Source of the DNA: a virus
Direction: 5' to 3' (one strand)
DNA: 12,158 nucleotides
UHGV virus genome: UHGV-1877853
Both the position numbers and the translations under genes were made by a program. Below, piece after piece: positions 1,808 to 12,158 of this stretch. The stretch's first letter is position 1. Each line of letters starts with the position of its first letter. The notes beneath the pieces were generated by a model. The model was not told where the DNA came from. It ran no database searches and worked only from the letters and a program-made list of their open reading frames with translations.

Positions 1808-2713
1808 ATGCCAAATTTACCGATGGGCGGATCGCAGGGTGAATTACCCTTAGTACCTACAGTAGAAGTTGTTGCTGATGGCATTCCTATGGGGGTGCTT
1901 AATGATGGAACCCCTTATCTAACTCTTTACGGTTTAGCCAAATTATGTGGCATAGATGAAGCACCTCTTCGAATGTTTACATCTAACTGGGAGACTGAAA
2001 AAAATAAGCCAAGAGGACAAAAAGTAGCTGCATACTTAGCTGAGAAAGGATTTAACAACGTTGACCGACTGTATACCCGCGTCATAAATAGCTCAAACGT
2101 TGAAACACATGCTTATCCTGACTATGTTTGTATGGCTATCCTCCGTTACTACGCTCTAGATGCCACCAATTTTGATAGGTCAGTCGCAATAGGTAATTTT
2201 GTTCGCTTGGCTGAGTACACGCTTAAGCGAATGATTTATGAAAAGTCAAATTACAACCCAAATGCTTCAATAGATATCTCATTCGAGAACTATAGAGCAA
2301 GGATTAAGCTAAACGATCAGATACCGACAACTCATTTTGCAGTATTCAGAGAGATAGCTGACATTGCCATGAACCTGATCGGAGGAGGATTCCCAATGGA
2401 TGACACCACATCTTTGGATGGAAGTGTTGGAATTCACTGGGGAAAGTATTGGACAGCTAATGGCCTATCTGAGAAATTCGGGGAAAGGGTGCAGTACCCA
2501 CATCTATTCCCCGAAAATTACAGGCAGTCAGCTGCAAATAAGCATATAAAAGCTTGGATTTATCCTATTGAGGCACTTGGCGTGTTCAGAAAATGGCTAC
2601 ACGATAATTACGCAATGGAAAAACTGCCAAATTACCTTGGGAACAAAAAGATTAGTAATGCCTCCGAGCTATTAGAGTTGATAAAAAAACCAGCACTCCC
2701 AAATAAGCATTGA
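1808..2713 (+). CDS. Hypothetical 301-aa protein occupying the rexA/rexB slot; possible KilA-N/Bro-N-like N-terminal domain; candidate prophage-encoded exclusion/abortive-infection protein (BstA-like hypothesis)
   Basis: Long ORF on the cI strand with an AAGGAA ribosome-binding site 7-8 nt upstream, followed by an intrinsic terminator. The region is visibly AT-rich compared with flanking lambda-like DNA. The translation does not resemble RexA or RexB as recalled. Confidence 0.8.
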   Translation: MPNLPMGGSQGELPLVPTVEVVADGIPMGVLNDGTPYLTLYGLAKLCGIDEAPLRMFTSNWETEKNKPRGQKVAAYLAEKGFNNVDRLYTRVINSSNVETHAYPDYVCMAILRYYALDATNFDRSVAIGNFVRLAEYTLKRMIYEKSNYNPNASIDISFENYRARIKLNDQIPTTHFAVFREIADIAMNLIGGGFPMDDTTSLDGSVGIHWGKYWTANGLSEKFGERVQYPHLFPENYRQSAANKHIKAWIYPIEALGVFRKWLHDNYAMEKLPNYLGNKKISNASELLELIKKPALPNKH

Positions 2714-3191: not shown

Positions 3192-3518
3192 ATGGATGCA
3201 CAAACACGCCGCCGCGAACGTCGCGCAGAGAAACAGGCTCAATGGAAAACAGCAAACCCCCTGTTGGTTGGGGTAAGCGCAAAACCAGTTAACCGCCCTA
3301 TTCTCTCGCTGAATCGCAAACCGAAATCACGAGTAGAAAGCGTACTGAATCCGATAGACCTTACAGTGCTGGCTGAATACCACGAACAGATTGAAAGCAA
3401 CCTGCAGCGTATTGAGCGCAAGAATCAGCGCACATGGTACAGCAAGCCACGCAGTGAAATGGGTGTGACTTGTGTTGGTCGCCAGAAAATGAAATTAGGC
3501 AGCAAACCACTTATTTGA
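3192..3518 (+). CDS. N: Antitermination protein N (lambda-like, C-terminal region diverged)
   Basis: Translation from MDAQTRRRERRAEKQAQWK... matches the lambda N arginine-rich N-terminus; GGAG ribosome-binding site upstream of ATG 3192. The track ORF 3060..3518 is an in-frame upstream extension through nutL. Confidence 0.9.
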   Translation: MDAQTRRRERRAEKQAQWKTANPLLVGVSAKPVNRPILSLNRKPKSRVESVLNPIDLTVLAEYHEQIESNLQRIERKNQRTWYSKPRSEMGVTCVGRQKMKLGSKPLI

Positions 3519-3529
3519 GAGGAATTAAT

Positions 3530-4153
3530 ATGTCATCAATCCGCTTAACTACGAGAATGAAAGAGGAAATCGCTCGTAACGCTTTAATTAAGTCTGGGGT
3601 TTTCACTGAACTTGAAGAAGTAACAAAGTTAAAGAACCAGCTTGCACTTGACGCCAGAGTTATTGCGTTTGGCGGGAAAAAGAAAACTGAGGAAGTTGAT
3701 CAGTTATCATCCAAGTTGGTAGCTATAAGTGAAGAACTTGAAAAGATGGGATGTTCATTTTACTCATACGATGTTCGTTCTACTTCAATTTATCTGACTG
3801 CATCTGGCAGAAGGATTGGATGGCATTCATATGGGAAAGACGGCAACGGCGAAGATATATTGCTCCCTACTCCGAACAAAGATAAATGCATGTTTAGCGC
3901 AGAACACGAAATAACAAAAAGGTTTGATGAAATCTGCGCATTGCAACAAAAACTTGAAGCCAAGAAAAAGGATATCGAATCAAATGTATGGGCTGCTTTG
4001 AACTCAGTCACAACAGTTAAGCGACTTATTGAGGTTTGGCCTGAAAGCAAAGAATTGCTACCAAAAGAAGCAGATAAAGCAAGTACAGCACTTCCTGCTT
4101 TACGGGTAGAAGATTTGAATAAGATGATTGGACTTCCTTCCGAGGCCGCATAG
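3530..4153 (+). CDS. Hypothetical 207-aa protein immediately downstream of N (ral/sieB slot)
   Basis: ATG 3530 with a GAGAGG ribosome-binding site that overlaps the N stop; AT-rich; followed by a hairpin and T-tract. No family recognised. Confidence 0.75.
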   Translation: MSSIRLTTRMKEEIARNALIKSGVFTELEEVTKLKNQLALDARVIAFGGKKKTEEVDQLSSKLVAISEELEKMGCSFYSYDVRSTSIYLTASGRRIGWHSYGKDGNGEDILLPTPNKDKCMFSAEHEITKRFDEICALQQKLEAKKKDIESNVWAALNSVTTVKRLIEVWPESKELLPKEADKASTALPALRVEDLNKMIGLPSEAA

Positions 4154-4168
4154 TCGGCCTTTATTTTT
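4143..4168 (+). terminator. Rho-independent terminator
   Basis: AGGCCG (4143..4148) / CGGCCT (4155..4160) stem, then TTATTTTT; the stop codon of the upstream gene lies in the loop. Confidence 0.55.
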
Positions 4169-4216
4169 GGCATAAACAACAGAATAAACACTGCACTGAA
4201 TTATTTGAGGTGAGAT

Positions 4217-4687
4217 ATGACAAAATCACGGAGCGTACCTTTTCCTGAATCAGAAACTGAACATAATGGAATGCCTGTTTTCTGGAGATTCCAAGCGACA
4301 GTTGAAGAAGATGGAATCAAAATATTCGCACTTCAATATATAGCTTTTCATCAGACAGAGCATTATGCATGGTTGGTTCCTGCGCATTGGATTGTTGATT
4401 TTAAACCAGCACCAAATCAGTGGTTACAGGAATGGAAACAAAGGAGAAATAGATATGCAATTAAGAAAGTAGCAAAAAATGCAGAAAGATCTTTTGCATT
4501 CCCAACGAAGAAACTTGCTATTGAAAGTTTATTGCGTCGGAAGAAATACCATTTAATGAGAATAAAACAAGATTTGGCTGTTGTATCAACTCTTGTTGAT
4601 GGGATGAAAAATATTGATACATCAATACCAGATATTGAATATAACTTTGGACACAACCAAGAAACAGAAAATTGGGTATTTTATTAG
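4217..4687 (+). CDS. Hypothetical 156-aa protein
   Basis: ATG 4217 preceded by a GAGGTGAG ribosome-binding site; AT-rich; followed by a hairpin at 4702..4729 and a terminator at 4791..4816. No family recognised. Confidence 0.7.
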   Translation: MTKSRSVPFPESETEHNGMPVFWRFQATVEEDGIKIFALQYIAFHQTEHYAWLVPAHWIVDFKPAPNQWLQEWKQRRNRYAIKKVAKNAERSFAFPTKKLAIESLLRRKKYHLMRIKQDLAVVSTLVDGMKNIDTSIPDIEYNFGHNQETENWVFY

Positions 4688-4790
4688 TACGAATAAGCAC
4701 TGTGTATTCATTCCAACGAGTGAATACACGGAGCAATGTCGCTCGTAACTAAACAGGAGCCGACTTGTTCTGATTATTGGAAATCTTCTT

Positions 4791-4816
4791 TGCCCTCCAG
4801 TGTGAGGGCGATTTTT
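4791..4816 (+). terminator. Rho-independent terminator
   Basis: GCCCTC (4791..4796) / GAGGGC (4803..4808) stem followed by a TTTTTT run. Confidence 0.5.
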
Positions 4817-4837
4817 TATCTATGAGGATATGAATAG

Positions 4838-5206
4838 ATGTCAAACATCAAAAAATACATCATTGATTACGACTGGAAAGCATCAATAGAAATTGAAATC
4901 GACCATGACGTAATGACAGAGGAAAAACTTCACCAGATTAATAATTTCTGGTCAGACTCTGAATACCGACTCAATAAACACGGCTCTGTATTAAATGCTG
5001 TATTAATCATGCTGGCGCAACATGCTCTGCTTATAGCAATTTCAAGCGACTTAAATGCATATGGTGTTGTGTGTGAGTTCGACTGGAATGATGGAAATGG
5101 TCAGGAAGGATGGCCTCCAATGGATGGTAGCGAAGGAATAAGAATTACCGATATCGATACATCAGGAATATTTGATTCAGATGATATGACTATCAAAGCC
5201 GCCTGA
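4838..5206 (+). CDS. Hypothetical small strongly acidic protein (122 aa)
   Basis: ATG 4838 with a GAGGA ribosome-binding site; by eye about 22 Asp/Glu against about 8 Lys/Arg; tightly followed by the next gene. Confidence 0.7.
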   Translation: MSNIKKYIIDYDWKASIEIEIDHDVMTEEKLHQINNFWSDSEYRLNKHGSVLNAVLIMLAQHALLIAISSDLNAYGVVCEFDWNDGNGQEGWPPMDGSEGIRITDIDTSGIFDSDDMTIKAA

Positions 5207-5240
5207 GAGCGTTTTTAAAGAATACAACGAAGGAGGATAT

Positions 5241-6209
5241 ATGAGTGAAGTAACAGATTTAGTTGTTATTGAAAAATCAAATGCAATGACTGTATTTCAG
5301 TCTGCCGACCAGATTGAAGAAATCCTTCAAAAGGTTGAACGTGAAGTTATGTCCTTTGTTCCTGATATCACAACGGCAAAGGGCAGGAAGGAGATCGCTT
5401 CTCTGGCGTATAAAGTTGCGCAGACGAAAACATATCTCGATGGTCTTGGCAAAGACCTTGTTGCTGAACTGAAGGAAATTCCAAAGCTAATTGATGCCAA
5501 CCGCAAGACAGTGCGTGATCGCCTTGATGAGCTGAAAGCCAAGGCACGCCAGCCTCTTACTGATTATGAGGAAGAACAGGCGCGGATTAAAGCCGAAGAA
5601 GAAGCTAAGGCAGCAGCTGAAGCTCTCGCAAAGCAAATTGAGTCTGACCATGAAATAGCTATTTTGATGGATCGCGAATTTGACCGCCAAAGAGAAGAGG
5701 CAAGACTCAAAGCGGAGCAGGAAAAGCGAGAGCATGAAGAACGCTTAAAAAGAGAAGCTGAAGAGAAAGCCAGAGCAGAAGCCGAAGCAAAGGCAAAAGC
5801 CGAAATTGAAGCAGCAGCAAGGCGAGAAGCAGAAGCTAAGGCCGCTGCGGAACGAGCAGAGCGTGAACGCATTGAAGCCGAGCAACGAGCACAGCGCGAA
5901 GCAAAAGAGGCAGCAGAACGAGCTGAAAGAGAAAAGCAGGCAGCAATTGAAGCAGAACGCAGAAAAGCACAGGAGGAGGCTGAACAAATCCGTCGCGATG
6001 CTGAAGCAAAAGAGCAAGCCAGAATAGCAGAAGAAAAAAGAATCAAGGACGAAGAAGAGCGTAGAGCAAAGGATAAAGCTCACCGGAAAGAAGTTAATAA
6101 CAAAATACTTGCTGACCTTATCAAGGTTGGCGCATCAGAAGATGTTGCTAAAAATATCATAACAGCCATCGTAAAAGGCGAAGTATTCGCAACAAAAATA
6201 ACCTACTAA
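5241..6209 (+). CDS. Hypothetical 322-aa protein with a globular N-terminal domain, a long E/R/K/A-rich predicted single alpha-helix or coiled coil, and a short C-terminal domain
   Basis: ATG 5241 with a GGAGGA ribosome-binding site; about 170 residues of EAKA/EREA-type repeats between residues ~110 and ~280. Confidence 0.75.
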   Translation: MSEVTDLVVIEKSNAMTVFQSADQIEEILQKVEREVMSFVPDITTAKGRKEIASLAYKVAQTKTYLDGLGKDLVAELKEIPKLIDANRKTVRDRLDELKAKARQPLTDYEEEQARIKAEEEAKAAAEALAKQIESDHEIAILMDREFDRQREEARLKAEQEKREHEERLKREAEEKARAEAEAKAKAEIEAAARREAEAKAAAERAERERIEAEQRAQREAKEAAERAEREKQAAIEAERRKAQEEAEQIRRDAEAKEQARIAEEKRIKDEEERRAKDKAHRKEVNNKILADLIKVGASEDVAKNIITAIVKGEVFATKITY

Positions 6210-6233: not shown

Positions 6234-6365
6234 ATGATTTACGCAATCGCGGGAGGCGCTCGCATGGGTGCCTTCCAACTAAATGAATCTTTACTTGAAC
6301 GAATCACCCGTAAATTACGTGACGGATGGAAAAGAGTTGAGGTCTTATTATGCGCAATGAAATAG
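6234..6365 (+). CDS. cIII: CIII-like protein (FtsH inhibitor family)
   Basis: 43-aa ORF (under the 60-aa track cutoff) with an AAGGAA ribosome-binding site; central motif ESLLERITRKLRDGWKR matches lambda CIII as recalled. Confidence 0.75.
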   Translation: MIYAIAGGARMGAFQLNESLLERITRKLRDGWKRVEVLLCAMK

Positions 6366-6502
6366 CCATCAATCACCAGATGCTTCGTGCTGCACAGAAC
6401 AAAGCAGTAATAGCCAGATTTATTGGTGATTCCAAAATGTGGCTTGAAGCAAATAAAGCGATGAAATCAGCTATCAACCTTCCGTGGTATCGCAGGAAAT
6501 GA
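6350..6502 (+). CDS. kil: Kil-like small protein
   Basis: 50-aa ORF overlapping the cIII 3' end; the motif IARFIGDSKMW resembles the lambda Kil motif (IATFIGDEKMF) as recalled; position after cIII fits. Confidence 0.5.
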   Translation: MRNEIAINHQMLRAAQNKAVIARFIGDSKMWLEANKAMKSAINLPWYRRK

Positions 6503-6669
6503 GTTTCACAGATAACTGGTCAGACGAAGAATTCATTCGTCAGATGAAAGAATTAATCGGTAACGAAGGAGATATTCATGTCACTTGCAACCACAGTGAA
6601 GGAGAGCAAGTTACAGAGACGCATGTACACGCAGCAGGCGTTAATGTATCGCCAGAAGGGAGATCGTGA
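6499..6669 (+). CDS. Hypothetical small protein, translationally coupled to the kil-like gene (ATGA overlap)
   Basis: ATG 6499 overlaps the kil-like TGA stop; 56 aa; sits in the arf position of P22-type operons but the sequence was not recognised. Confidence 0.4.
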   Translation: MSFTDNWSDEEFIRQMKELIGNEGDIHVTCNHSEGEQVTETHVHAAGVNVSPEGRS

Positions 6670-6758
6670 AGGTGTGCGCGTATTTTTAAATGCGGCAAAG
6701 ACTGAAGTATTAAATCAGCGTTATTTCCTTGGGCCATGTCCATTCTGAGAACAAACAT

Positions 6759-7364
6759 ATGAGTAAAGAATTTTACGCAAGACTGGCAGCTATTCAGGAG
6801 AATCTGAACGCGCCAAAGAATCAGTACAACTCATTCGGTAAATATAAATACAGAAGCTGCGAAGACATTCTTGAAGGCGTTAAGCCGTTACTGAATGGCC
6901 TGTTTTTATCAATCAGCGATGAAGTTGTGTTGATTGGTGATCGGTATTACGTAAAAGCCACGGCAACTATTACCGATGGCGAAAACAGTCATACGGCAAC
7001 CGCTCTTGCACGAGAGGAAGAAAGCAAGAAAGGAATGGATTCTGCACAAGTTACTGGAGCTACAAGCTCTTATGCGCGCAAGTATTGCCTCAATGGTTTG
7101 TTCGGCATTGATGATGCGAAAGATGCAGATACCGACGAACATAAACATCAGCAGAACGCAGCAGCAAAGCAATCAAAACCATCACCTACACCTGAACAGG
7201 TTCTAAAAGCATTCACTGACGCAGCAATGCAAAAAAACACCGTGGAAGAGCTTAAACAGGCGTTCGCCAAAGCGTGGAAGATGCTCGAAGGAACACCGGA
7301 GCAGCACAAAGCGCAGGACGTTTACAACATCAGACGTGACGAATTAGAAGGAGCGTCTGCTTAA
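6759..7364 (+). CDS. erf: Erf single-strand annealing recombinase (P22 Erf family)
   Basis: Translation from MSKEFYARLAAIQENLNAPKNQYNSFGKYKYRSCEDILEG... matches P22 Erf as recalled; start at ATG 6759 rather than the upstream in-frame ATG 6729. Confidence 0.85.
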   Translation: MSKEFYARLAAIQENLNAPKNQYNSFGKYKYRSCEDILEGVKPLLNGLFLSISDEVVLIGDRYYVKATATITDGENSHTATALAREEESKKGMDSAQVTGATSSYARKYCLNGLFGIDDAKDADTDEHKHQQNAAAKQSKPSPTPEQVLKAFTDAAMQKNTVEELKQAFAKAWKMLEGTPEQHKAQDVYNIRRDELEGASA

Positions 7365-7747
7365 TGGCACATTCGATTACTGTAAGACTAAACAAGCCCG
7401 CAAGAGAGTTTCAGGCCGGGGAAAATATCGGATTCAACATCCGTGCTGGCGTTCAGTATTACGATCGCCAGACAAAAAAGAAAGAATGGACAAACTACAG
7501 CGCCGTTGTATTTGCCAAGCCGGGAGCGCAAGCGGATTACTACCGTAGTGTTCTTGTTGAAGGTGGCATTGTGGAAATTACCGGAGAAAACATCAGGGTT
7601 GATGTTTATCAGGGGCAAAATGGTCAATCAATCACTCTTGAATTACTGAATGCAAAGATTGGATTTGCAGCTTCAGGAAATGGCCCGCAGCAGCAAAGTA
7701 GTAACCAGCAGAACACTCCTGTATACGACGATTCCATCCCATTCTGA
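7364..7747 (+). CDS. SSB-like OB-fold protein with a host-SSB-like acidic C-terminal tail (..YDDSIPF)
   Basis: ATG overlaps the erf stop (TAATG); C-terminus ends DDSIPF, resembling the E. coli SSB tail DDDIPF; Gln/Gly-rich linker before the tail. Confidence 0.65.
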   Translation: MAHSITVRLNKPAREFQAGENIGFNIRAGVQYYDRQTKKKEWTNYSAVVFAKPGAQADYYRSVLVEGGIVEITGENIRVDVYQGQNGQSITLELLNAKIGFAASGNGPQQQSSNQQNTPVYDDSIPF

Positions 7748-7770
7748 TTTAGAAAAATAAGGATTTAATT

Positions 7771-8064
7771 ATGCCAGCGCCTCTGTATGGTGCGGATGAC
7801 CCACGCCGCTGTTCCGGCAATTCCGTATCGGAGGTGCTGGATAAATTCAGGAAAAACTACGACCGGATAATGTCGCTACCGCAGGAAACGAAAGAGGAAA
7901 AGGAATTTCGCCATTGTATATGGCTTGCAGAGAAAGAAGAACTAGAGCGAATTTACCAGACATCAATCCGACCATTCCGCAAAGCCACATATACCCACTT
8001 CCCTGAAATTGACCCGCGCCTGCGTAATTACCGCTCACGCTATGGCGCTATCAGTAATGACTGA
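7771..8064 (+). CDS. Possible Abc2-like anti-RecBCD protein (97 aa)
   Basis: Position downstream of erf and 97-aa size fit P22 Abc2; the sequence match is from uncertain memory. AAGGA ribosome-binding site. Confidence 0.45.
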
Positions 8065-8074
8065 GGAATTTACC

Positions 8075-8239
8075 ATGAGAGGACTTGCATACAATCCCGG
8101 TATTCTTCCGGCAGAAATGATTATTCGCCAACGCGTAAAGCCAATGCCATCGAGAGAGGAATTGCTTAAAAGAAATAGTTTCGGTTCTGTTAATGACAAC
8201 AAATATCTGAATGCGATGTTGCGGAGTGGGAAAAAATGA
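8075..8239 (+). CDS. Hypothetical small protein (54 aa); start could alternatively be ATG 8057
   Basis: GAGG ribosome-binding site 7 nt upstream of ATG 8075; stop overlaps the next start. Confidence 0.4.
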
Positions 8240-8709
8240 AACAAATGTCACTAATTGAGATGGATGGTTTTCTGAAAGGTAAATGCATCCCAAGTGATTT
8301 AAAGGTTAACGAAACAAACGCTGAATATCTGGTGCGTAAGTTCGGTGAGCTTGAATCAAAACTGGAAACGGCGTTGCGGGAGTGTCGTTCTGCTGGAATC
8401 ACGATTGATAACCTTGAGGCCAAGTGCGCGGCGCTGGCAGCGAAGAGTGCGGGGCTGAAAAAGTTCTGTGAAGACGCAGCGTTTGATGCTGATTATGAGT
8501 CAGAACTTCTTGGAGAACGCGGTGGATTTGTTGATGGGCTTAGCTTGGTAAAAACCCCAGCCACCGACGCTTTCCTGGCTGAAGTACGGGCGCATGGCGT
8601 GGAGATGGCTATGGAGCATATGCAGTCGAGCGGTTCGTTAACATTTGGAGATTGCTACATATCACTTAACGAGTTCGCCGCAGAGCTTCGCAAAGGAGGC
8701 AACCAGTGA
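8236..8709 (+). CDS. Hypothetical protein (157 aa)
   Basis: ORF in the tightly packed early-left array; ATGA overlap with the upstream gene. Confidence 0.6.
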
Positions 8710-9374
8710 GCAAGATTGACTATCAGGCACTGCGTGAGTTAGCAAAACAGGCAACACAGGGCGAATGGGTCGCATTTATTTCGCCGGGTACTGGTACGTA
8801 TGCGGTGCATACACCTGGTGATAAACGATGTGAAGACGTTATCAAATGGACCGGCTTTGATGGACAGAACAACGCAGAGAACAACGCTCGTTATATCGCA
8901 GCTTTCAACCCTGAAGTAGTGCTGGCACTACTGGATGAACGGGAAAGAAACCAGCAATACATCAAACGCCGTGACCAGGAGAACGAGGATATTGCGCTAA
9001 CGGTAGGGAAGCTGTTAATCGAAAACGGTCAGCTTGTTGCCGATACGCTACGCCACTTAGCTGATAACGAAATCGACTCTGATTATTTTGCTATCACCTC
9101 AACTAATGAGAACGGTACTGAAATTGATCATGAGATGTCTATTACCGATTACGCACTGCAAGCTGCCGGAACTGTAGACGAATTGGTTGCGGCGCTGGAA
9201 TCCGCAGAGAAGCGCATAGCAGAACTGGAAGCGCGGGAAATACTGCTCCCGGAACGTAGCAGCATGCTTCATCGAACAGATTTTCACGATGATTACCAAA
9301 CGGTAATGGCATACAAAGTTTCTGAAGTCATCGCTGCAATCCGCGCCGCTGGTATTCGCATCAAAGGAGAGTGA
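8706..9374 (+). CDS. Ead/Ea22-like family protein (222 aa)
   Basis: GTG start at 8706 with a strong AGGAGG ribosome-binding site 7 nt upstream; N-terminal ALRELAKQATQGEW motif is typical of Ead/Ea22-like prophage proteins. Confidence 0.6.
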   Translation: MSKIDYQALRELAKQATQGEWVAFISPGTGTYAVHTPGDKRCEDVIKWTGFDGQNNAENNARYIAAFNPEVVLALLDERERNQQYIKRRDQENEDIALTVGKLLIENGQLVADTLRHLADNEIDSDYFAITSTNENGTEIDHEMSITDYALQAAGTVDELVAALESAEKRIAELEAREILLPERSSMLHRTDFHDDYQTVMAYKVSEVIAAIRAAGIRIKGE

Positions 9375-9375
9375 T

Positions 9376-9951
9376 ATGACCACTATAACCGATAAGAAAC
9401 AGTATCCCAGCGATCAATATCTTAATGAGCTGGTCACCAACATGGAGTTTGCTGCAAGGGCACCAGTTGAAGTCGTGAGAGCGATGGCAGCAGAGCTACA
9501 GAAGCGGCGCGAAGCTGATAGTGCAGAACCTGTAAGCCAAACTTACAACTTGCCAGAATTAATCGAAGGCATGGAAGTTTCCATTGATGTAAGCACTTGT
9601 GATGCTGATTTAGGTAATCGCTATTTCGGCACCGTCACCGAGGCGTTAGAACTTGATACAGCCAAGAATGGTTACATCCTCTTGGTTCAGGACGCAGAGC
9701 CAAACTTCGATGTAAATGGCAACTCTCCGGTAACTCCGGATGGTTGGATAAGCTGTAGTGAGCGAATGCCAGATGATGGTCAGCACGTAATTATTTTATG
9801 TGATGGCGCATTCGTTCTTTATGCGCAATATCGAGACGGAGAGTTTTTCGATATTGTCCGCAATGGTGATGAATTTTTCGAAACACAGAGTCGCAATGTA
9901 ACCGACTGGATGCCTCTACCAGAACCGCCGAAGGAGGTTAACCGTGGCTAA
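9376..9951 (+). CDS. DUF551-like prophage protein (191 aa)
   Basis: C-terminal W.SCSERMPDDG...TDWMPLPEPP motif is characteristic of DUF551 proteins; GGAGAG ribosome-binding site. Confidence 0.6.
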   Translation: MTTITDKKQYPSDQYLNELVTNMEFAARAPVEVVRAMAAELQKRREADSAEPVSQTYNLPELIEGMEVSIDVSTCDADLGNRYFGTVTEALELDTAKNGYILLVQDAEPNFDVNGNSPVTPDGWISCSERMPDDGQHVIILCDGAFVLYAQYRDGEFFDIVRNGDEFFETQSRNVTDWMPLPEPPKEVNRG

Positions 9952-10807: not shown

Positions 10808-10999
10808 ATGACCGATACCAGCCTGATTCCTGAGAAAGAAGTGATGAACAAGCTCGGTGTTTCATCACGTCAGACAATCTTGAACTATACCAAACGGCAC
10901 GGATTTCCGAAGCCAGTCAGAACCCACCCAAAATCATACCTTCGTGAAGCTGTTGAAGGGTGGATTCTTAACGGTGGCGTTAACCAGAAATGCTCCTGA
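10808..10999 (+). CDS. xis: Excisionase-like small DNA-binding protein (AlpA/Xis family)
   Basis: 63 aa; GGAG ribosome-binding site; family-level resemblance to AlpA-type excisionases; directly adjacent to and converging on the integrase. Confidence 0.6.
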   Translation: MTDTSLIPEKEVMNKLGVSSRQTILNYTKRHGFPKPVRTHPKSYLREAVEGWILNGGVNQKCS

Positions 11000-12158
11000 T
11001 GTGCCAGAACAATTTATCAGCGTGAAGCTCATAAGCTTTGCGCTGAGCCTCTATCCAGTCGTGTTTATTGTACACGGACATTATCCCGCCAAGTTCATGA
11101 CCGAGCATTCGCTCAGTAACATGAGGCTCGACATTCATCTCGGACAGACGTGTAACAAGCGTTCTTCTGAAATCATGTGTTCGCCAGTAACCTAGATCCA
11201 TCCCTCCCCTTATTCTATTTACGAATCGGTTGGCTGCAGCGATGCTGATCGGTTTGTTTATGTCTTCTCCAGGGAAAAGAACATCATTGTACGTTGTCAT
11301 GGTCTTTTCGAGAAAAGGCTTAATTTGTTCGAAGATTGGACGACGGATAACATTACCCATCTTGCTATGCTCTTTCGGTACGGTCCATACGTTGTCCAGC
11401 AGGTCAAATTCTGTCTTTGTTGCCAGCCTAAGCTCTGAGAGCCTCGCCCCCCACAGCATAAGCATCTGATGAAGTAGCTTATTTGACGTAGACGCACGGC
11501 TTCTTTCAATAGCAAGCCAAATCTTAGCCAGTTCGTGATACGACAGTACCCGATCCCCTACCTCAGCGCGGGAGCCGAAGTCCCTTGGTTGGATGCTCAT
11601 AATTGCGCAACTATCTATCAACTGACGCCGCATGCACCAACTTATTGCTGATCTTAGTTGACTTAGCACCTGCCTTGCTCGGCGTGGATTATCTCTTTCT
11701 TCTTCGGTAAGCAGGTCAACCCATTGCTTAACCGTGATAGAAGATGCCGGACGATTAGGAAAGGCGTCATGCATGCGCTTCATAACCGTTGATCGGTAAA
11801 GTGCCTGGGTCTTTTCTCTGAGAGTTGTAGAGACGTAGTTGTCGAACCAGTAGTCGAGACACTGGGCGACCGTCATGGAGTTCTCCACCTTCTCTTCAAA
11901 ATAGGTGCGTGGATCCGTTCCTGAGAAATAGAGCTTTCGCAAGTCAGCAGTGATCTGTCTGGCATCCTTCAAAGACAGGGATGGGTATCGACCAAGCCCA
12001 AGTCGATTAGGCTTGCCATGCCAGCGATAGCGGTACTGGAACTGGATGACCCCCTTCGGTGAAATTCGTATGCTGAGGCCATCGGCATCAGCCACTTCTT
12101 GTGGGCCCGAATATGGTTTACCATAAATAGTACGCAGTTTTGTGTCGCTTATAGCCAT
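10980..12158 (-). CDS. int: Tyrosine-type site-specific integrase (P4-like architecture with N-terminal arm-binding domain)
   Basis: 392 aa; C-terminal catalytic signature (HDFRRT ... LGH ... SVYNKHDW with the presumed catalytic Tyr); the N-terminal pattern GL.IRISPKG...FQYRYR is typical of P4-family integrase arm-binding domains. The start codon lies at the window edge (12156..12158). Confidence 0.9.
   Translation of the reverse strand: MAISDTKLRTIYGKPYSGPQEVADADGLSIRISPKGVIQFQYRYRWHGKPNRLGLGRYPSLSLKDARQITADLRKLYFSGTDPRTYFEEKVENSMTVAQCLDYWFDNYVSTTLREKTQALYRSTVMKRMHDAFPNRPASSITVKQWVDLLTEEERDNPRRARQVLSQLRSAISWCMRRQLIDSCAIMSIQPRDFGSRAEVGDRVLSYHELAKIWLAIERSRASTSNKLLHQMLMLWGARLSELRLATKTEFDLLDNVWTVPKEHSKMGNVIRRPIFEQIKPFLEKTMTTYNDVLFPGEDINKPISIAAANRFVNRIRGGMDLGYWRTHDFRRTLVTRLSEMNVEPHVTERMLGHELGGIMSVYNKHDWIEAQRKAYELHADKLFWHIRSISG

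What the first reader, a model, noticed from the sequence alone, without database searches (positions are those of the whole stretch)
4838..6209. Two-gene unit: small highly acidic protein plus a long E/R/K-rich helix protein
The 122-aa protein is strongly net-negative, a composition shared by DNA-mimic anti-restriction or anti-defence proteins, though that is not proof. Its start codon is 35 bp after the upstream terminator and it is followed 34 bp later by a 322-aa protein whose middle ~170 residues are EAKA/EREA-type repeats, predicted to form a single alpha-helix or coiled-coil spacer between two small domains. Both sit in the pL early operon between the N-proximal cargo and cIII. The pairing and early expression make a host-takeover or anti-defence role plausible.
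Basis: partly seen in the sequence, partly recalled or inferred. Interest (0 to 1): 0.5.

Follow-up and report, generated by a model that had tools for sequence, protein, structure and literature searches.

The report
Lambda ea10 plus recombination-linked long-helix gene
The two genes are real but are not a pair: one is the long-known, still unexplained phage lambda gene ea10, and the other is a widespread uncharacterised phage protein, often mislabelled "TolA", that usually sits next to phage DNA-recombination genes.

Summary
Both ORFs exist as described, in the pL operon of a lambdoid E. coli prophage between N and cIII.

**ORF 4838-5206** is 100% identical to phage lambda Ea10 (Pfam DUF2528). 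It has net charge -14, and acidity is conserved across the family. The literature describes it as abundant, non-essential and of unknown role. Its predicted fold is compact alpha/beta. It is not an OB-fold SSB and resembles no known DNA mimic.

**ORF 5241-6209** belongs to the Shigella phage Sf6 gp33 / Pseudomonas phage D3 Orf53 family (phrog_1376, no Pfam model). It has three parts:
- a conserved 118-aa helical N-domain;
- an E/R/K/A-rich helix of 98-246 aa that looks like a single alpha-helix;
- a conserved 44-aa C-domain.

The family has over 5,600 clusters at 50% identity. [quoted passage not shown]

**The pairing is accidental.**
- Only 4 of 80 related loci for either gene carry the other gene.
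- The tandem occurs in 36 of 5,426 complete E. coli genomes.
- A lambda-type/Sf6-type mosaic joint lies in the 34-nt spacer between them.

The anti-defence/DNA-mimic idea remains untested. Both genes are already known sequences with unknown function, so interest is modest.

The parts
4697..4818 (+). Conserved ral-ea10 intergenic block: copy of the lambda LPR1 small-RNA region ending in terminator tL2a (stem 4790-4811 plus T-run)
   Evidence: About 4698-4835 is identical to the lambda ral-ea10 intergenic region, and the core up to the terminator stem is also identical to Sf6 boundary sequence bsq4. Terminator scan. LPR1/tL2a is described in bioRxiv 10.1101/2024.10.31.621285. Sf6 annotation of bsq4/tL2A.
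4838..5206 (+). ea10: 122-aa acidic protein, 100% identical to phage lambda Ea10 (DUF2528)
   Evidence: tblastn 100% identity to lambda, 434 and DE3. Pfam PF10800 at 160.6 bits. phrog_646. pI 4.28, net charge -14. AF2 pLDDT 94.
5207..5240 (+). 34-nt spacer containing the mosaic joint between lambda-type sequence (ea10 side) and Sf6-type sequence (322-aa gene side)
   Evidence: Alignments with lambda and Sf6.
5241..5594 (+). 322-aa gene, N-domain (residues 1-118): short helices, conserved loop V-P-D-x-T/S-T-x-K-G-R, then the start of a very long helix
   Evidence: 39 positions are at least 80% conserved in 101 family representatives. AF2 of residues 1-160: helices 12-20, 22-38 and 46-159, pLDDT 83. 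A profile of this domain finds 5,651 representative clusters.
5595..6074 (+). 322-aa gene, E/R/K/A-rich helical linker (residues about 119-278). Degenerate purine-rich DNA repeats; length varies among relatives
   Evidence: Composition and i/i+4 charge pairs. Only 1-2 of 8 heptad a/d positions are hydrophobic. DNA repeats. Relatives of 245-333 aa differ by in-frame indels here. Linker is 98-246 aa across the family.
6075..6209 (+). 322-aa gene, conserved C-domain (residues 279-322, ending I-x-Y) plus stop codon
   Evidence: Conserved H281, N286, G297, A303, I310, G313, I320 and Y322 in 101 representatives. A 50-aa consensus of this domain finds 162 phage records, all of those listed being phages of Proteobacteria.
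6234..6365 (+). cIII (FtsH inhibitor), the usual immediate downstream neighbour of both genes in enterobacterial phages
   Evidence: phrog_550. RefSeq annotation in identical E. coli prophages. cIII lies directly downstream in 71 of 80 loci with the 322-aa gene and is the next recognised gene in most ea10 loci.
6350..8064 (+). kil, arf-like ORF (6484-6669), erf (6759-7364), ssb (7364-7747), abc2 (7771-8064): the recombination module that the 322-aa gene precedes
   Evidence: Pfam Lambda_Kil, ERF and Anti-RecBCD_p2. PHROGs.

Best explanation
These are two independent, separately inherited cassettes of the lambdoid early-left (pL) operon. They happen to sit side by side in this E. coli ST131-type prophage.

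**(1) ea10 (4838-5206), shown.** This is phage lambda ea10, a DUF2528 protein. It is a small, compact, consistently acidic early protein that is abundant, and dispensable in the laboratory.

**ea10, inferred (about 30%).** It acts stoichiometrically by binding and blocking a basic, nucleic-acid-handling host protein through its acidic surface and its invariant E-G-W-P-P-M-D-G-S-x-G loop. It is unlikely to be a classical DNA-shaped anti-restriction mimic (about 10%).

**(2) The 322-aa gene (5241-6209), shown.** It is a member of the large Sf6 gp33 / D3 Orf53 family. Members have a conserved helical N-domain, a length-variable charged helix that looks like a single alpha-helix, and a small conserved C-domain. 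In most cases examined the gene sits next to a phage single-strand-annealing recombination module (Erf, RecT or Rad52 with exonuclease and SSB).

**The 322-aa gene, inferred.** It is an accessory of that module (about 55%). It would work as a rigid spacer holding two binding activities a set distance apart, for example linking the recombination proteins or DNA ends to another partner (about 25% for this specific mechanism).
For: **Identity**
- The 122-aa protein is 100% identical to lambda Ea10 and matches Pfam DUF2528.
- The 322-aa protein matches phrog_1376 and corresponds to Sf6 gene 33, annotated 'similar to phage D3 Orf53'.

**Independence of the two genes**
- Lambda has ea10 directly upstream of cIII, with no 322-aa gene.
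- Sf6 has gene 33 directly upstream of cIII, with no ea10.
- Co-occurrence is 4/80 in each direction.
- The tandem occurs in 36 of 5,426 E. coli genomes, against 1,466 with ea10 and 495 with the 322-aa gene.
- A mosaic joint lies in the spacer.

**Ea10**
- AF2 gives pLDDT 94 for a compact alpha/beta fold.
- Net charge is -8 to -20 (median -14) in 44 homologues down to 38% identity. Residues E90, G91, P93, G97 and G100 are invariant.
- It is non-essential by CRISPRi (PMC10695390).
- It is an abundant pL product once mistaken for Kil (PMC3961180).
- Distant homologues sit in the early accessory regions of Mu-like phages.

**The 322-aa family**
- Tripartite conservation.
- AF2 predicts a single long helix over residues 46-159.
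- The linker has 50-68% charged residues, many i/i+4 opposite-charge pairs and almost no heptad hydrophobic positions.
- The family has 5,651 representative clusters, and none of 101 members scanned matches a Pfam family that accounts for the protein.

**Synteny of the 322-aa family**
- It is adjacent to Erf/exonuclease in Pseudomonas phages D3 and PAJU2 and Sinorhizobium phage phiLM21.
- It is adjacent to Gam/Bet/Exo in Klebsiella phage Mulock.
- It lies near exonuclease VIII/Bet in Serratia phage Eta, and near Erf in a Vibrio phage and Edwardsiella phage GF-2.
- In 54 loci from different bacterial species, the four downstream ORFs include ERF 18, RecT 8, Rad52 3, AAA_24 2, SSB 16, YqaJ 12 and DUF3799 7.
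- Erf sits at position +1 in 14 loci, and 38 of 54 loci have a recombination gene within -4 to +5.
- No other recurrent partner family appears.
Against: **General**
- No experiment addresses either protein's function, so all functional statements are inference.

**The 322-aa gene**
- Early-left operons of temperate phages often carry recombination genes, so some adjacency is expected from operon order alone.
- With my seed HMMs, 16 of 54 species-level loci showed no recombination gene within -4 to +5.
- It co-occurs with known RecBCD modulators (Abc2 here, Gam in Mulock). It is therefore not simply their substitute.
- The single-helix call rests on composition and on an AF2 model of residues 1-160 only. 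The full-length protein was not modelled, and a helical hairpin or an oligomeric coiled coil is not excluded.

**Ea10**
- Lambda Ea10 has a hydrophobic helix (Kyte-Doolittle 2.05 at residues 51-69) that could mean membrane association. The family median of 1.44 argues against a transmembrane segment.
Confidence: 0.75

Rival explanations
1. The two genes form a dedicated early anti-defence or host-takeover pair, in which the acidic protein is a DNA mimic that blocks restriction or another DNA-targeting defence.
For: - Conserved strong acidity.
- Abundant early expression (PMC3961180).
- In lambda, ea10 lies near the anti-restriction gene ral.
- The cIII-flanked recombination region is proposed to be a hotspot of anti-defence genes (bioRxiv 10.64898/2026.07.10.737580).
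Against: - The pairing is not conserved, and a mosaic joint lies between the genes.
- Neither gene appears in the two accessory-gene screening papers I checked.
- From my own knowledge, not tested here: lambda's restriction alleviation maps to ral, and lambda is efficiently restricted by type I and type II systems despite carrying ea10.
Confidence: 0.1
2. Ea10 mimics the C-terminal tail of bacterial SSB. It would titrate host proteins that dock on that tail (exonuclease I, RecQ, RecJ, PriA and others), protecting phage recombination or replication intermediates.
For: - Bacterial-type SSB tails in related phage loci read E-P-P-M-D-F-D-D-D-I-P-F.
- Ea10 has nearly invariant E-G-W-P-P-M-D and a conserved F-D-x-D-D-M sixteen residues later.
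- Both motifs are rare in 12,484 six-frame segments from the fetched loci: 45 and 8 occurrences, and both together only in Ea10.
- This resemblance may explain the old 'ssb' label for ea10 seen in database records.
Against: - The resemblance is split, short and noticed after the fact.
- The motifs lie in confidently folded regions (pLDDT 87-96), not in a free tail, and the protein does not end in I-P-F.
- Their spatial proximity could not be checked because no model coordinates were available.
Confidence: 0.1
3. The database annotations are right: the 122-aa protein is a single-stranded-DNA-binding protein and the 322-aa protein is a TolA-like cell-envelope protein.
For: GenBank and RefSeq records label relatives 'ssDNA binding protein' and 'cell envelope biogenesis protein TolA'.
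Against: **Ea10**
- No Pfam SSB hit.
- The model has 3 strands and 4 helices, which is not an OB barrel.

**The 322-aa protein**
- No TolA domain in it or in 100 relatives.
- No hydrophobic anchor: maximum Kyte-Doolittle score 1.03.
- The resemblance to TolA is confined to low-complexity E/K/A helix composition.
Confidence: 0.03
4. The 322-aa protein serves the lysis-lysogeny decision with cIII (for example by modulating FtsH/HflKC or cIII expression) rather than recombination.
For: cIII is the immediate downstream gene in 71 of 80 enterobacterial loci and in Edwardsiella phage GF-2.
Against: In Pseudomonas, Sinorhizobium, Achromobacter, Luteibacter, Acinetobacter and other hosts, no cIII was detected or annotated and the gene directly abuts Erf or other recombination genes. 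The association that survives across distance is with recombination genes.
Confidence: 0.08

Closest known systems
Phage lambda Ea10 (UniProt name 'protein ea10 / ssb'; Pfam DUF2528, PF10800)
   Same: 100% amino-acid identity over all 122 residues. The upstream LPR1/tL2a block is the same, and the gene has the same place in the pL operon.
   Different: In lambda, ea10 is followed directly by cIII. Here the 322-aa gene lies between them.
Shigella phage Sf6 gene 33 protein / Pseudomonas phage D3 Orf53 (phrog_1376)
   Same: The 322-aa protein is about 98-99% identical to its closest phage relatives in the regions BLAST does not mask (the DNA is 98% identical to Sf6). It has the same length as Sf6 gp33 and the same downstream neighbours cIII and kil. 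D3 and PAJU2 relatives share the N-domain (about 52-55% identity over residues 1-109) and the C-domain.
   Different: In Sf6 the gene directly follows terminator tL2a. Here ea10 is inserted between them. In D3-type phages the gene abuts Erf with no cIII annotated.
ER/K single alpha-helix (SAH) spacers, e.g. in myosin VI/X and other proteins (comparison from my own knowledge)
   Same: A long stretch with more than 50% E/K/R, dense i/i+4 opposite-charge pairs and no hydrophobic seam, linking two conserved end domains. Length varies among relatives.
   Different: It is rich in alanine as well. No biophysical data exist, and the N-terminal part (residues 55-96) has a heptad-like pattern that could form a coiled coil.
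Phage recombination-module accessories: lambda Gam, P22 Abc2 and Arf, HK75 Gp33
   Same: Encoded in the same cIII-flanked early-left recombination locus. This region is considered a hotspot for RecBCD modulators and anti-defence genes.
   Different: No sequence or fold similarity to any of them was found. The 322-aa gene co-occurs with Abc2, Arf and Gam rather than replacing them.
E. coli TolA (source of the common database label)
   Same: A long Ala/Glu/Lys-rich helical segment.
   Different: No membrane anchor and no TolA C-terminal domain. The genomic context is a phage early operon.

Membership tests
Lambda Ea10 / DUF2528 (PF10800) | Match to the Pfam model above its gathering score | tested here: met
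   160.6 bits against a cut-off of 22, covering profile positions 1-104 of 104.
Lambda Ea10 / DUF2528 (PF10800) | Sequence identity to lambda Ea10 and the same operon position (after tL2a, before cIII) | tested here: met
   100% identity over 122 aa. The upstream block is identical to lambda. It lies in the pL operon.
DNA-mimic anti-restriction proteins (Ocr, ArdA type) | Strong net negative charge | tested here: met
   Net charge -14, pI 4.28. Family range is -8 to -20.
DNA-mimic anti-restriction proteins (Ocr, ArdA type) | Structure that imitates the shape and charge pattern of DNA, or fold similarity to a known mimic | tested here: inconclusive
DNA-mimic anti-restriction proteins (Ocr, ArdA type) | Inhibition of a restriction or defence system | not testable with these tools
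   Needs plating and binding assays.
Bacterial/phage SSB (OB fold, PF00436) | SSB Pfam match and OB-fold barrel | tested here: not met
Bacterial/phage SSB (OB fold, PF00436) | Acidic C-terminal tip ending D-D-D-I-P-F | tested here: not met
   Ea10 ends ...FDSDDMTIKAA. Only a split resemblance exists (PPMD ... FDxDDM).
Sf6 gp33 / D3 Orf53 family (phrog_1376) | Profile match over the full length | tested here: met
   phrog_1376 at E 6.7e-110 over residues 1-322. DNA is 98% identical to the Sf6 gene 33 region.
Sf6 gp33 / D3 Orf53 family (phrog_1376) | Tripartite architecture: conserved N-domain, variable charged helix, conserved C-domain ending I-x-Y | tested here: met
   Measured on 101 representatives. 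N-domain median 118 aa, linker 98-246 aa, C-domain median 44 aa.
Sf6 gp33 / D3 Orf53 family (phrog_1376) | Position next to cIII and/or a single-strand-annealing recombination module | tested here: met
   cIII, kil, arf, erf, ssb and abc2 follow the gene in the window. The same holds in relatives.
ER/K single alpha-helix domain | High E/K/R content with i/i+4 opposite-charge pairs and no hydrophobic heptad seam | tested here: met
   Residues 150-275: 50-68% charged, 7-17 pairs per 28 residues, and 1-2 of 8 a/d positions hydrophobic.
ER/K single alpha-helix domain | Stable monomeric helix in solution | not testable with these tools
   Needs circular dichroism, SAXS or SEC-MALS. Only residues 1-160 were modelled.
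TolA | N-terminal membrane anchor and TolA C-terminal domain | tested here: not met
   Maximum Kyte-Doolittle (19-residue window) is 1.03, and that peak is near the C-terminus. No TolA Pfam domain in the protein or in 100 relatives.
Phage recombination accessory proteins (functional class) | Effect on recombination, or physical interaction with the annealing protein, SSB, exonuclease or host RecBCD | not testable with these tools
   Only gene-neighbourhood evidence is available.

The most novel reading that the evidence does not exclude
The Sf6 gp33 / D3 Orf53 family is an unrecognised, widespread component of single-strand-annealing recombination modules in phages of Proteobacteria. It would be a length-tunable single-helix tether whose N- and C-terminal domains hold two partners a set distance apart, such as the annealing protein or SSB, DNA ends, or a host nuclease or replisome component. 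Its length polymorphism would tune that function.
Probability: 0.3. Interest if true: 0.6.

Novelty: already known. Interest (0 to 1): 0.3.

Why it matters
- **ea10:** It is one of the last abundant early proteins of phage lambda without a known function, and it is carried by about a quarter of complete E. coli genomes.
- **The 322-aa family:** It is very large, has no Pfam model and is routinely mislabelled TolA. Its persistent position next to Erf, RecT and Rad52-type recombination modules across distant hosts suggests a missing accessory function in phage recombination. That has possible relevance to recombineering tools and to the conflict between phage recombination loci and host immunity.
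- **For this scan:** The main value is corrective. The 'pair' is a chance mosaic, and two misleading database names can be set aside.

Tried and rejected
**Searches that gave nothing**
- Pfam, NCBIfam and PADLOC searches of the 322-aa protein and its separate domains, even at E up to 10 for Pfam.
- A profile search of the PDB sequences for both families.
- Foldseek against BFVD with Ea10 found one unnamed homologue. The AFDB library was unavailable.
- Rfam found nothing in the window at gathering thresholds, so LPR1 rests on identity to lambda plus the preprint.
- Literature searches for the 322-aa family found no functional study. The lambda-host interactome paper could not be read. The Ea10 partner in the lambda interaction map was not recoverable.

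**Ideas considered and dropped**
- **HK75 Gp33 as the 322-aa protein.** HK75 Gp33 is reported to trigger OLD, an abortive-infection defence protein of prophage P2. I suspected it might be the 322-aa protein, but it is the small arf-like ORF instead.
- **Gram-positive relatives.** I recalled a possible relation to phage families DUF1351 and Gp157, which sit beside recombinases. No Gram-positive phage appeared among the listed hits and no Pfam hit was found. The lead was not pursued by profile-profile comparison.
Full report
**Setting**

The window is the immunity and early-left region of a lambdoid prophage, read on the + strand.
- cII and cro lie on the minus strand, followed by a lambda-type cI (976-1689).
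- Next come a BstA abortive-infection gene (1808-2713) and N (about 3195-3518).
- An Nmad5-domain gene (3530-4153) and a 156-aa ORF (4217-4687) follow.
- Then come a terminator and the two ORFs of the finding.
- Downstream are cIII (6234-6365), kil, an arf-like ORF, erf, ssb and abc2.
- Several acidic mosaic ORFs follow, then an AlpA-like gene and an integrase on the opposite strand.

The segment 4690-6370 is 100% identical to prophages in E. coli strains including an O25:H4 isolate.

**Observation check**

Both ORFs are present at the stated coordinates, each with a good ribosome-binding site, separated by 34 nt.
- The 122-aa protein has pI 4.28 and net charge -14.
- The terminator stem is at 4790-4811, followed by a T-run.
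- In the 322-aa protein, residues about 105-280 are E/R/K/A-rich. From about residue 150 to 275, 28-residue windows are 50-68% charged and at most 7% hydrophobic.
- The underlying DNA has only degenerate purine-rich repeats.

**What the 122-aa protein is**

It is phage lambda Ea10.
- It is 100% identical over its full length to lambda, 434 and DE3, and 97-99% identical in many Stx phages.
- It matches Pfam DUF2528 at 160.6 bits.
- The block upstream (about 4698-4835) is identical to the lambda ral-ea10 intergenic region. A 2024 preprint shows that region encodes the Hfq-dependent small RNA LPR1, whose 3' end is terminator tL2a.

The literature found says three things about ea10:
- It is non-essential by CRISPRi (PMC10695390).
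- Its product is an abundant pL protein once mistaken for Kil (PMC3961180).
- Its role is 'not fully understood'.

An alignment-based AlphaFold2 model is confident (pLDDT 94). It shows a beta-hairpin, four helices, a long ordered loop carrying the invariant E-G-W-P-P-M-D-G-S-x-G motif, and a final strand.

Acidity is conserved. The net charge is -8 to -20 (median -14) in 44 homologues down to 38% identity.

- No OB-fold SSB and no known DNA mimic in the top 60.

BFVD and PDB sequence searches add nothing. The database label 'ssDNA-binding protein' is therefore not supported.

A possible origin of that label, and a lead, is a split resemblance to the SSB C-terminal tail.
- Phage SSBs in related loci end E-P-P-M-D-F-D-D-D-I-P-F.
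- Ea10 has near-invariant W-P-P-M-D and, sixteen residues later, conserved F-D-x-D-D-M.
- This was noticed after the fact and could not be tested structurally.

Distant homologues lie in the early accessory regions of Mu-like Burkholderia and Stenotrophomonas phages, next to GemA/Mor and an RdgC-like gene. The family is a general early accessory gene, not a lambda peculiarity.

**What the 322-aa protein is**

It matches phrog_1376 over its full length and corresponds to Sf6 gene 33, annotated 'similar to phage D3 Orf53'.

No Pfam, NCBIfam or PADLOC model matches it. Many records call it TolA. It has no hydrophobic anchor and no TolA domain, so that name reflects low-complexity composition only.

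A profile of residues 1-118 finds 5,651 representative clusters at 50% identity in the 1.84-billion-protein library, 5,097 of them below E = 1e-10. None of 101 members scanned matches a Pfam family that accounts for the protein.

Across 101 representatives the architecture is constant:
- An N-domain of about 118 aa with 39 positions at least 80% conserved. These include D42, T45, G48, R49, K63, G70, K71, R88, R92, R103, P105 and E110.
- A linker of 98-246 aa.
- A C-domain of about 44 aa that ends the protein with I-x-Y.

Close relatives of 245, 275, 300 and 333 aa differ from the 322-aa form by in-frame indels in the repeat region.

AlphaFold2 of residues 1-160 (pLDDT 83) gives two short helices, the conserved loop, then one uninterrupted helix from residue 46 to 159. 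The central region has only 1-2 of 8 heptad a/d positions hydrophobic, with many i/i+4 opposite-charge pairs. This fits a single alpha-helix better than a coiled coil. Residues 55-96 do have a heptad-like pattern.

**Are the two genes a unit?**

No.
- Lambda has ea10 directly before cIII with no 322-aa gene.
- Sf6 has gene 33 directly before cIII with no ea10.
- HK75 has neither.
- Of 80 IMG/VR loci with the 322-aa gene, 71 have cIII immediately downstream. The upstream neighbour varies (ral, Nmad5, the 156-aa ORF and others), and only 4 have ea10.
- Of 80 ea10 loci, only 4 have the 322-aa gene. Most go straight to cIII and carry lambda gam, bet and exo.

| Feature in 5,426 complete E. coli genomes | Genomes |
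|---|---|
| ea10 (at least 80% of the query covered) | 1,466 |
| 322-aa gene N-domain (at least 80% covered) | 495 |
| Tandem arrangement (at least 80% covered) | 36 |

The window tracks lambda through ea10 and about 20 nt beyond. It then switches to Sf6-type sequence at the ribosome-binding site of the 322-aa gene. The juxtaposition is a mosaic accident in which two alternative occupants of the slot before cIII ended up in series.

**What the 322-aa gene travels with**

In distant phages it is next to the recombination module, whatever the type of annealing protein.

| Phage | Neighbouring recombination genes |
|---|---|
| Pseudomonas D3 | Erf then exonuclease |
| Pseudomonas PAJU2 | Erf then exonuclease |
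| Sinorhizobium phiLM21 | Erf, YqaJ exonuclease, NinB |
| Klebsiella Mulock | Gam, Bet, Exo |
| Serratia Eta | exonuclease VIII and Bet |
| Vibrio phage 1.132.O | Erf just upstream |
| Edwardsiella GF-2 | cIII then Erf, SSB |

In 54 loci from different bacterial species (Gamma-, Beta- and Alphaproteobacteria and a few others), I scanned the ORFs of at least 110 aa in the four downstream positions.
- Pfam matches were ERF 18, RecT 8, Rad52 3, AAA_24 2, SSB 16, YqaJ 12 and DUF3799 7.
- Per-locus HMM searches place Erf at +1 in 14 loci. They find an annealing protein in 30 of 54 loci and some recombination gene in 38 of 54.
- Clustering of all neighbours shows no other recurrent partner.

Ea10's distant homologues do not keep such a neighbourhood. 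This argues that the link for the 322-aa gene is more than operon order.

**Mechanism: shown and inferred**

*Shown:* the identities, architecture, conservation, independence of the two genes, and synteny.

*Inferred for the 322-aa protein:*
- It is an accessory of the single-strand-annealing module (about 55%).
- Its two conserved ends are held apart by a stiff charged helix, so it would act as a spacer or tether between two binding partners (about 25%).

*Inferred for Ea10:*
- It is a stoichiometric binder and inhibitor of a basic host protein, acting through its acidic surface and invariant loop (about 30%).
- Classical DNA-mimic anti-restriction is about 10%.
- SSB-tail mimicry is about 10%.

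A 2026 preprint argues that these cIII-flanked recombination loci are hotspots for RecBCD modulators and anti-immunity genes. This keeps an immunity-related role open for either gene.

**Verdict**

The anti-defence/DNA-mimic interpretation is unsupported, though not excluded for ea10. The 322-aa gene points to recombination. Both sequences are already known, one of them since the lambda genome, so novelty is low. The residual interest is the large, unnamed, recombination-linked family and the still-unknown role of Ea10.

Noticed in passing
window 4697-4818: The block before ea10 is identical to the lambda ral-ea10 intergenic region. That region encodes the Hfq-dependent small RNA LPR1, ending in terminator tL2a; LPR1 is reported to raise DnaN translation. 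The core of the same block is the Sf6 'boundary sequence' bsq4, so it is both a functional RNA and a recurrent mosaic joint. Rfam has no model for it.
   Followed up: partly
window 6484-6669 (ATG at 6499): The small acidic arf-like ORF is 100% identical over 55 residues to phage HK75 Gp33. A 2026 preprint reports that Gp33 is sufficient to trigger the P2 OLD abortive-infection system and proposes it is a new RecBCD modulator.
   Followed up: yes
window 1808-2713: A BstA-family abortive-infection gene (PADLOC BstA at E 2.9e-106, phrog_6287) occupies the rexAB position between cI and N.
   Followed up: partly
window 3530-4687: Directly after N lie an Nmad5 gene ('nucleotide modification associated domain 5', Pfam E 9.4e-72) and a 156-aa ORF of unknown function (phrog_1636). 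Both recur as alternative upstream neighbours of the 322-aa gene in other prophages.
   Followed up: no
window 8236-9951: Three consecutive acidic ORFs (157, 222 and 191 aa; net charge -8, -17 and -20) each match many different PHROGs piecewise. They look like modular, shuffled Ea-type accessory proteins of unknown function.
   Followed up: partly
window 5595-6074, and proteins P0207, P0219, P0302: The charged-helix region of the 322-aa gene is length-polymorphic among near-identical E. coli relatives (245, 275, 300, 322 and 333 aa). The variants differ by in-frame indels between degenerate GAAGC-type repeats.
   Followed up: partly
L227 3501-3842; L228 3471-3857: Distant Ea10 (DUF2528) homologues occur in Mu-like Burkholderia and Stenotrophomonas phages. 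They lie in the early accessory region next to GemA/Mor and an RdgC-like gene.
   Followed up: partly
window 4988-5044 (Ea10 residues 51-69): Lambda Ea10 has a 19-residue stretch with a Kyte-Doolittle score of 2.05, above the usual transmembrane threshold. The family median is 1.44, and the model buries it as the central helix.
   Followed up: partly
window 10808-12158: The integrase is on the minus strand, converging on and overlapping by 20 nt the end of an AlpA-like excisionase/regulator ORF on the plus strand. Lambda instead has int and xis co-directional.
   Followed up: no
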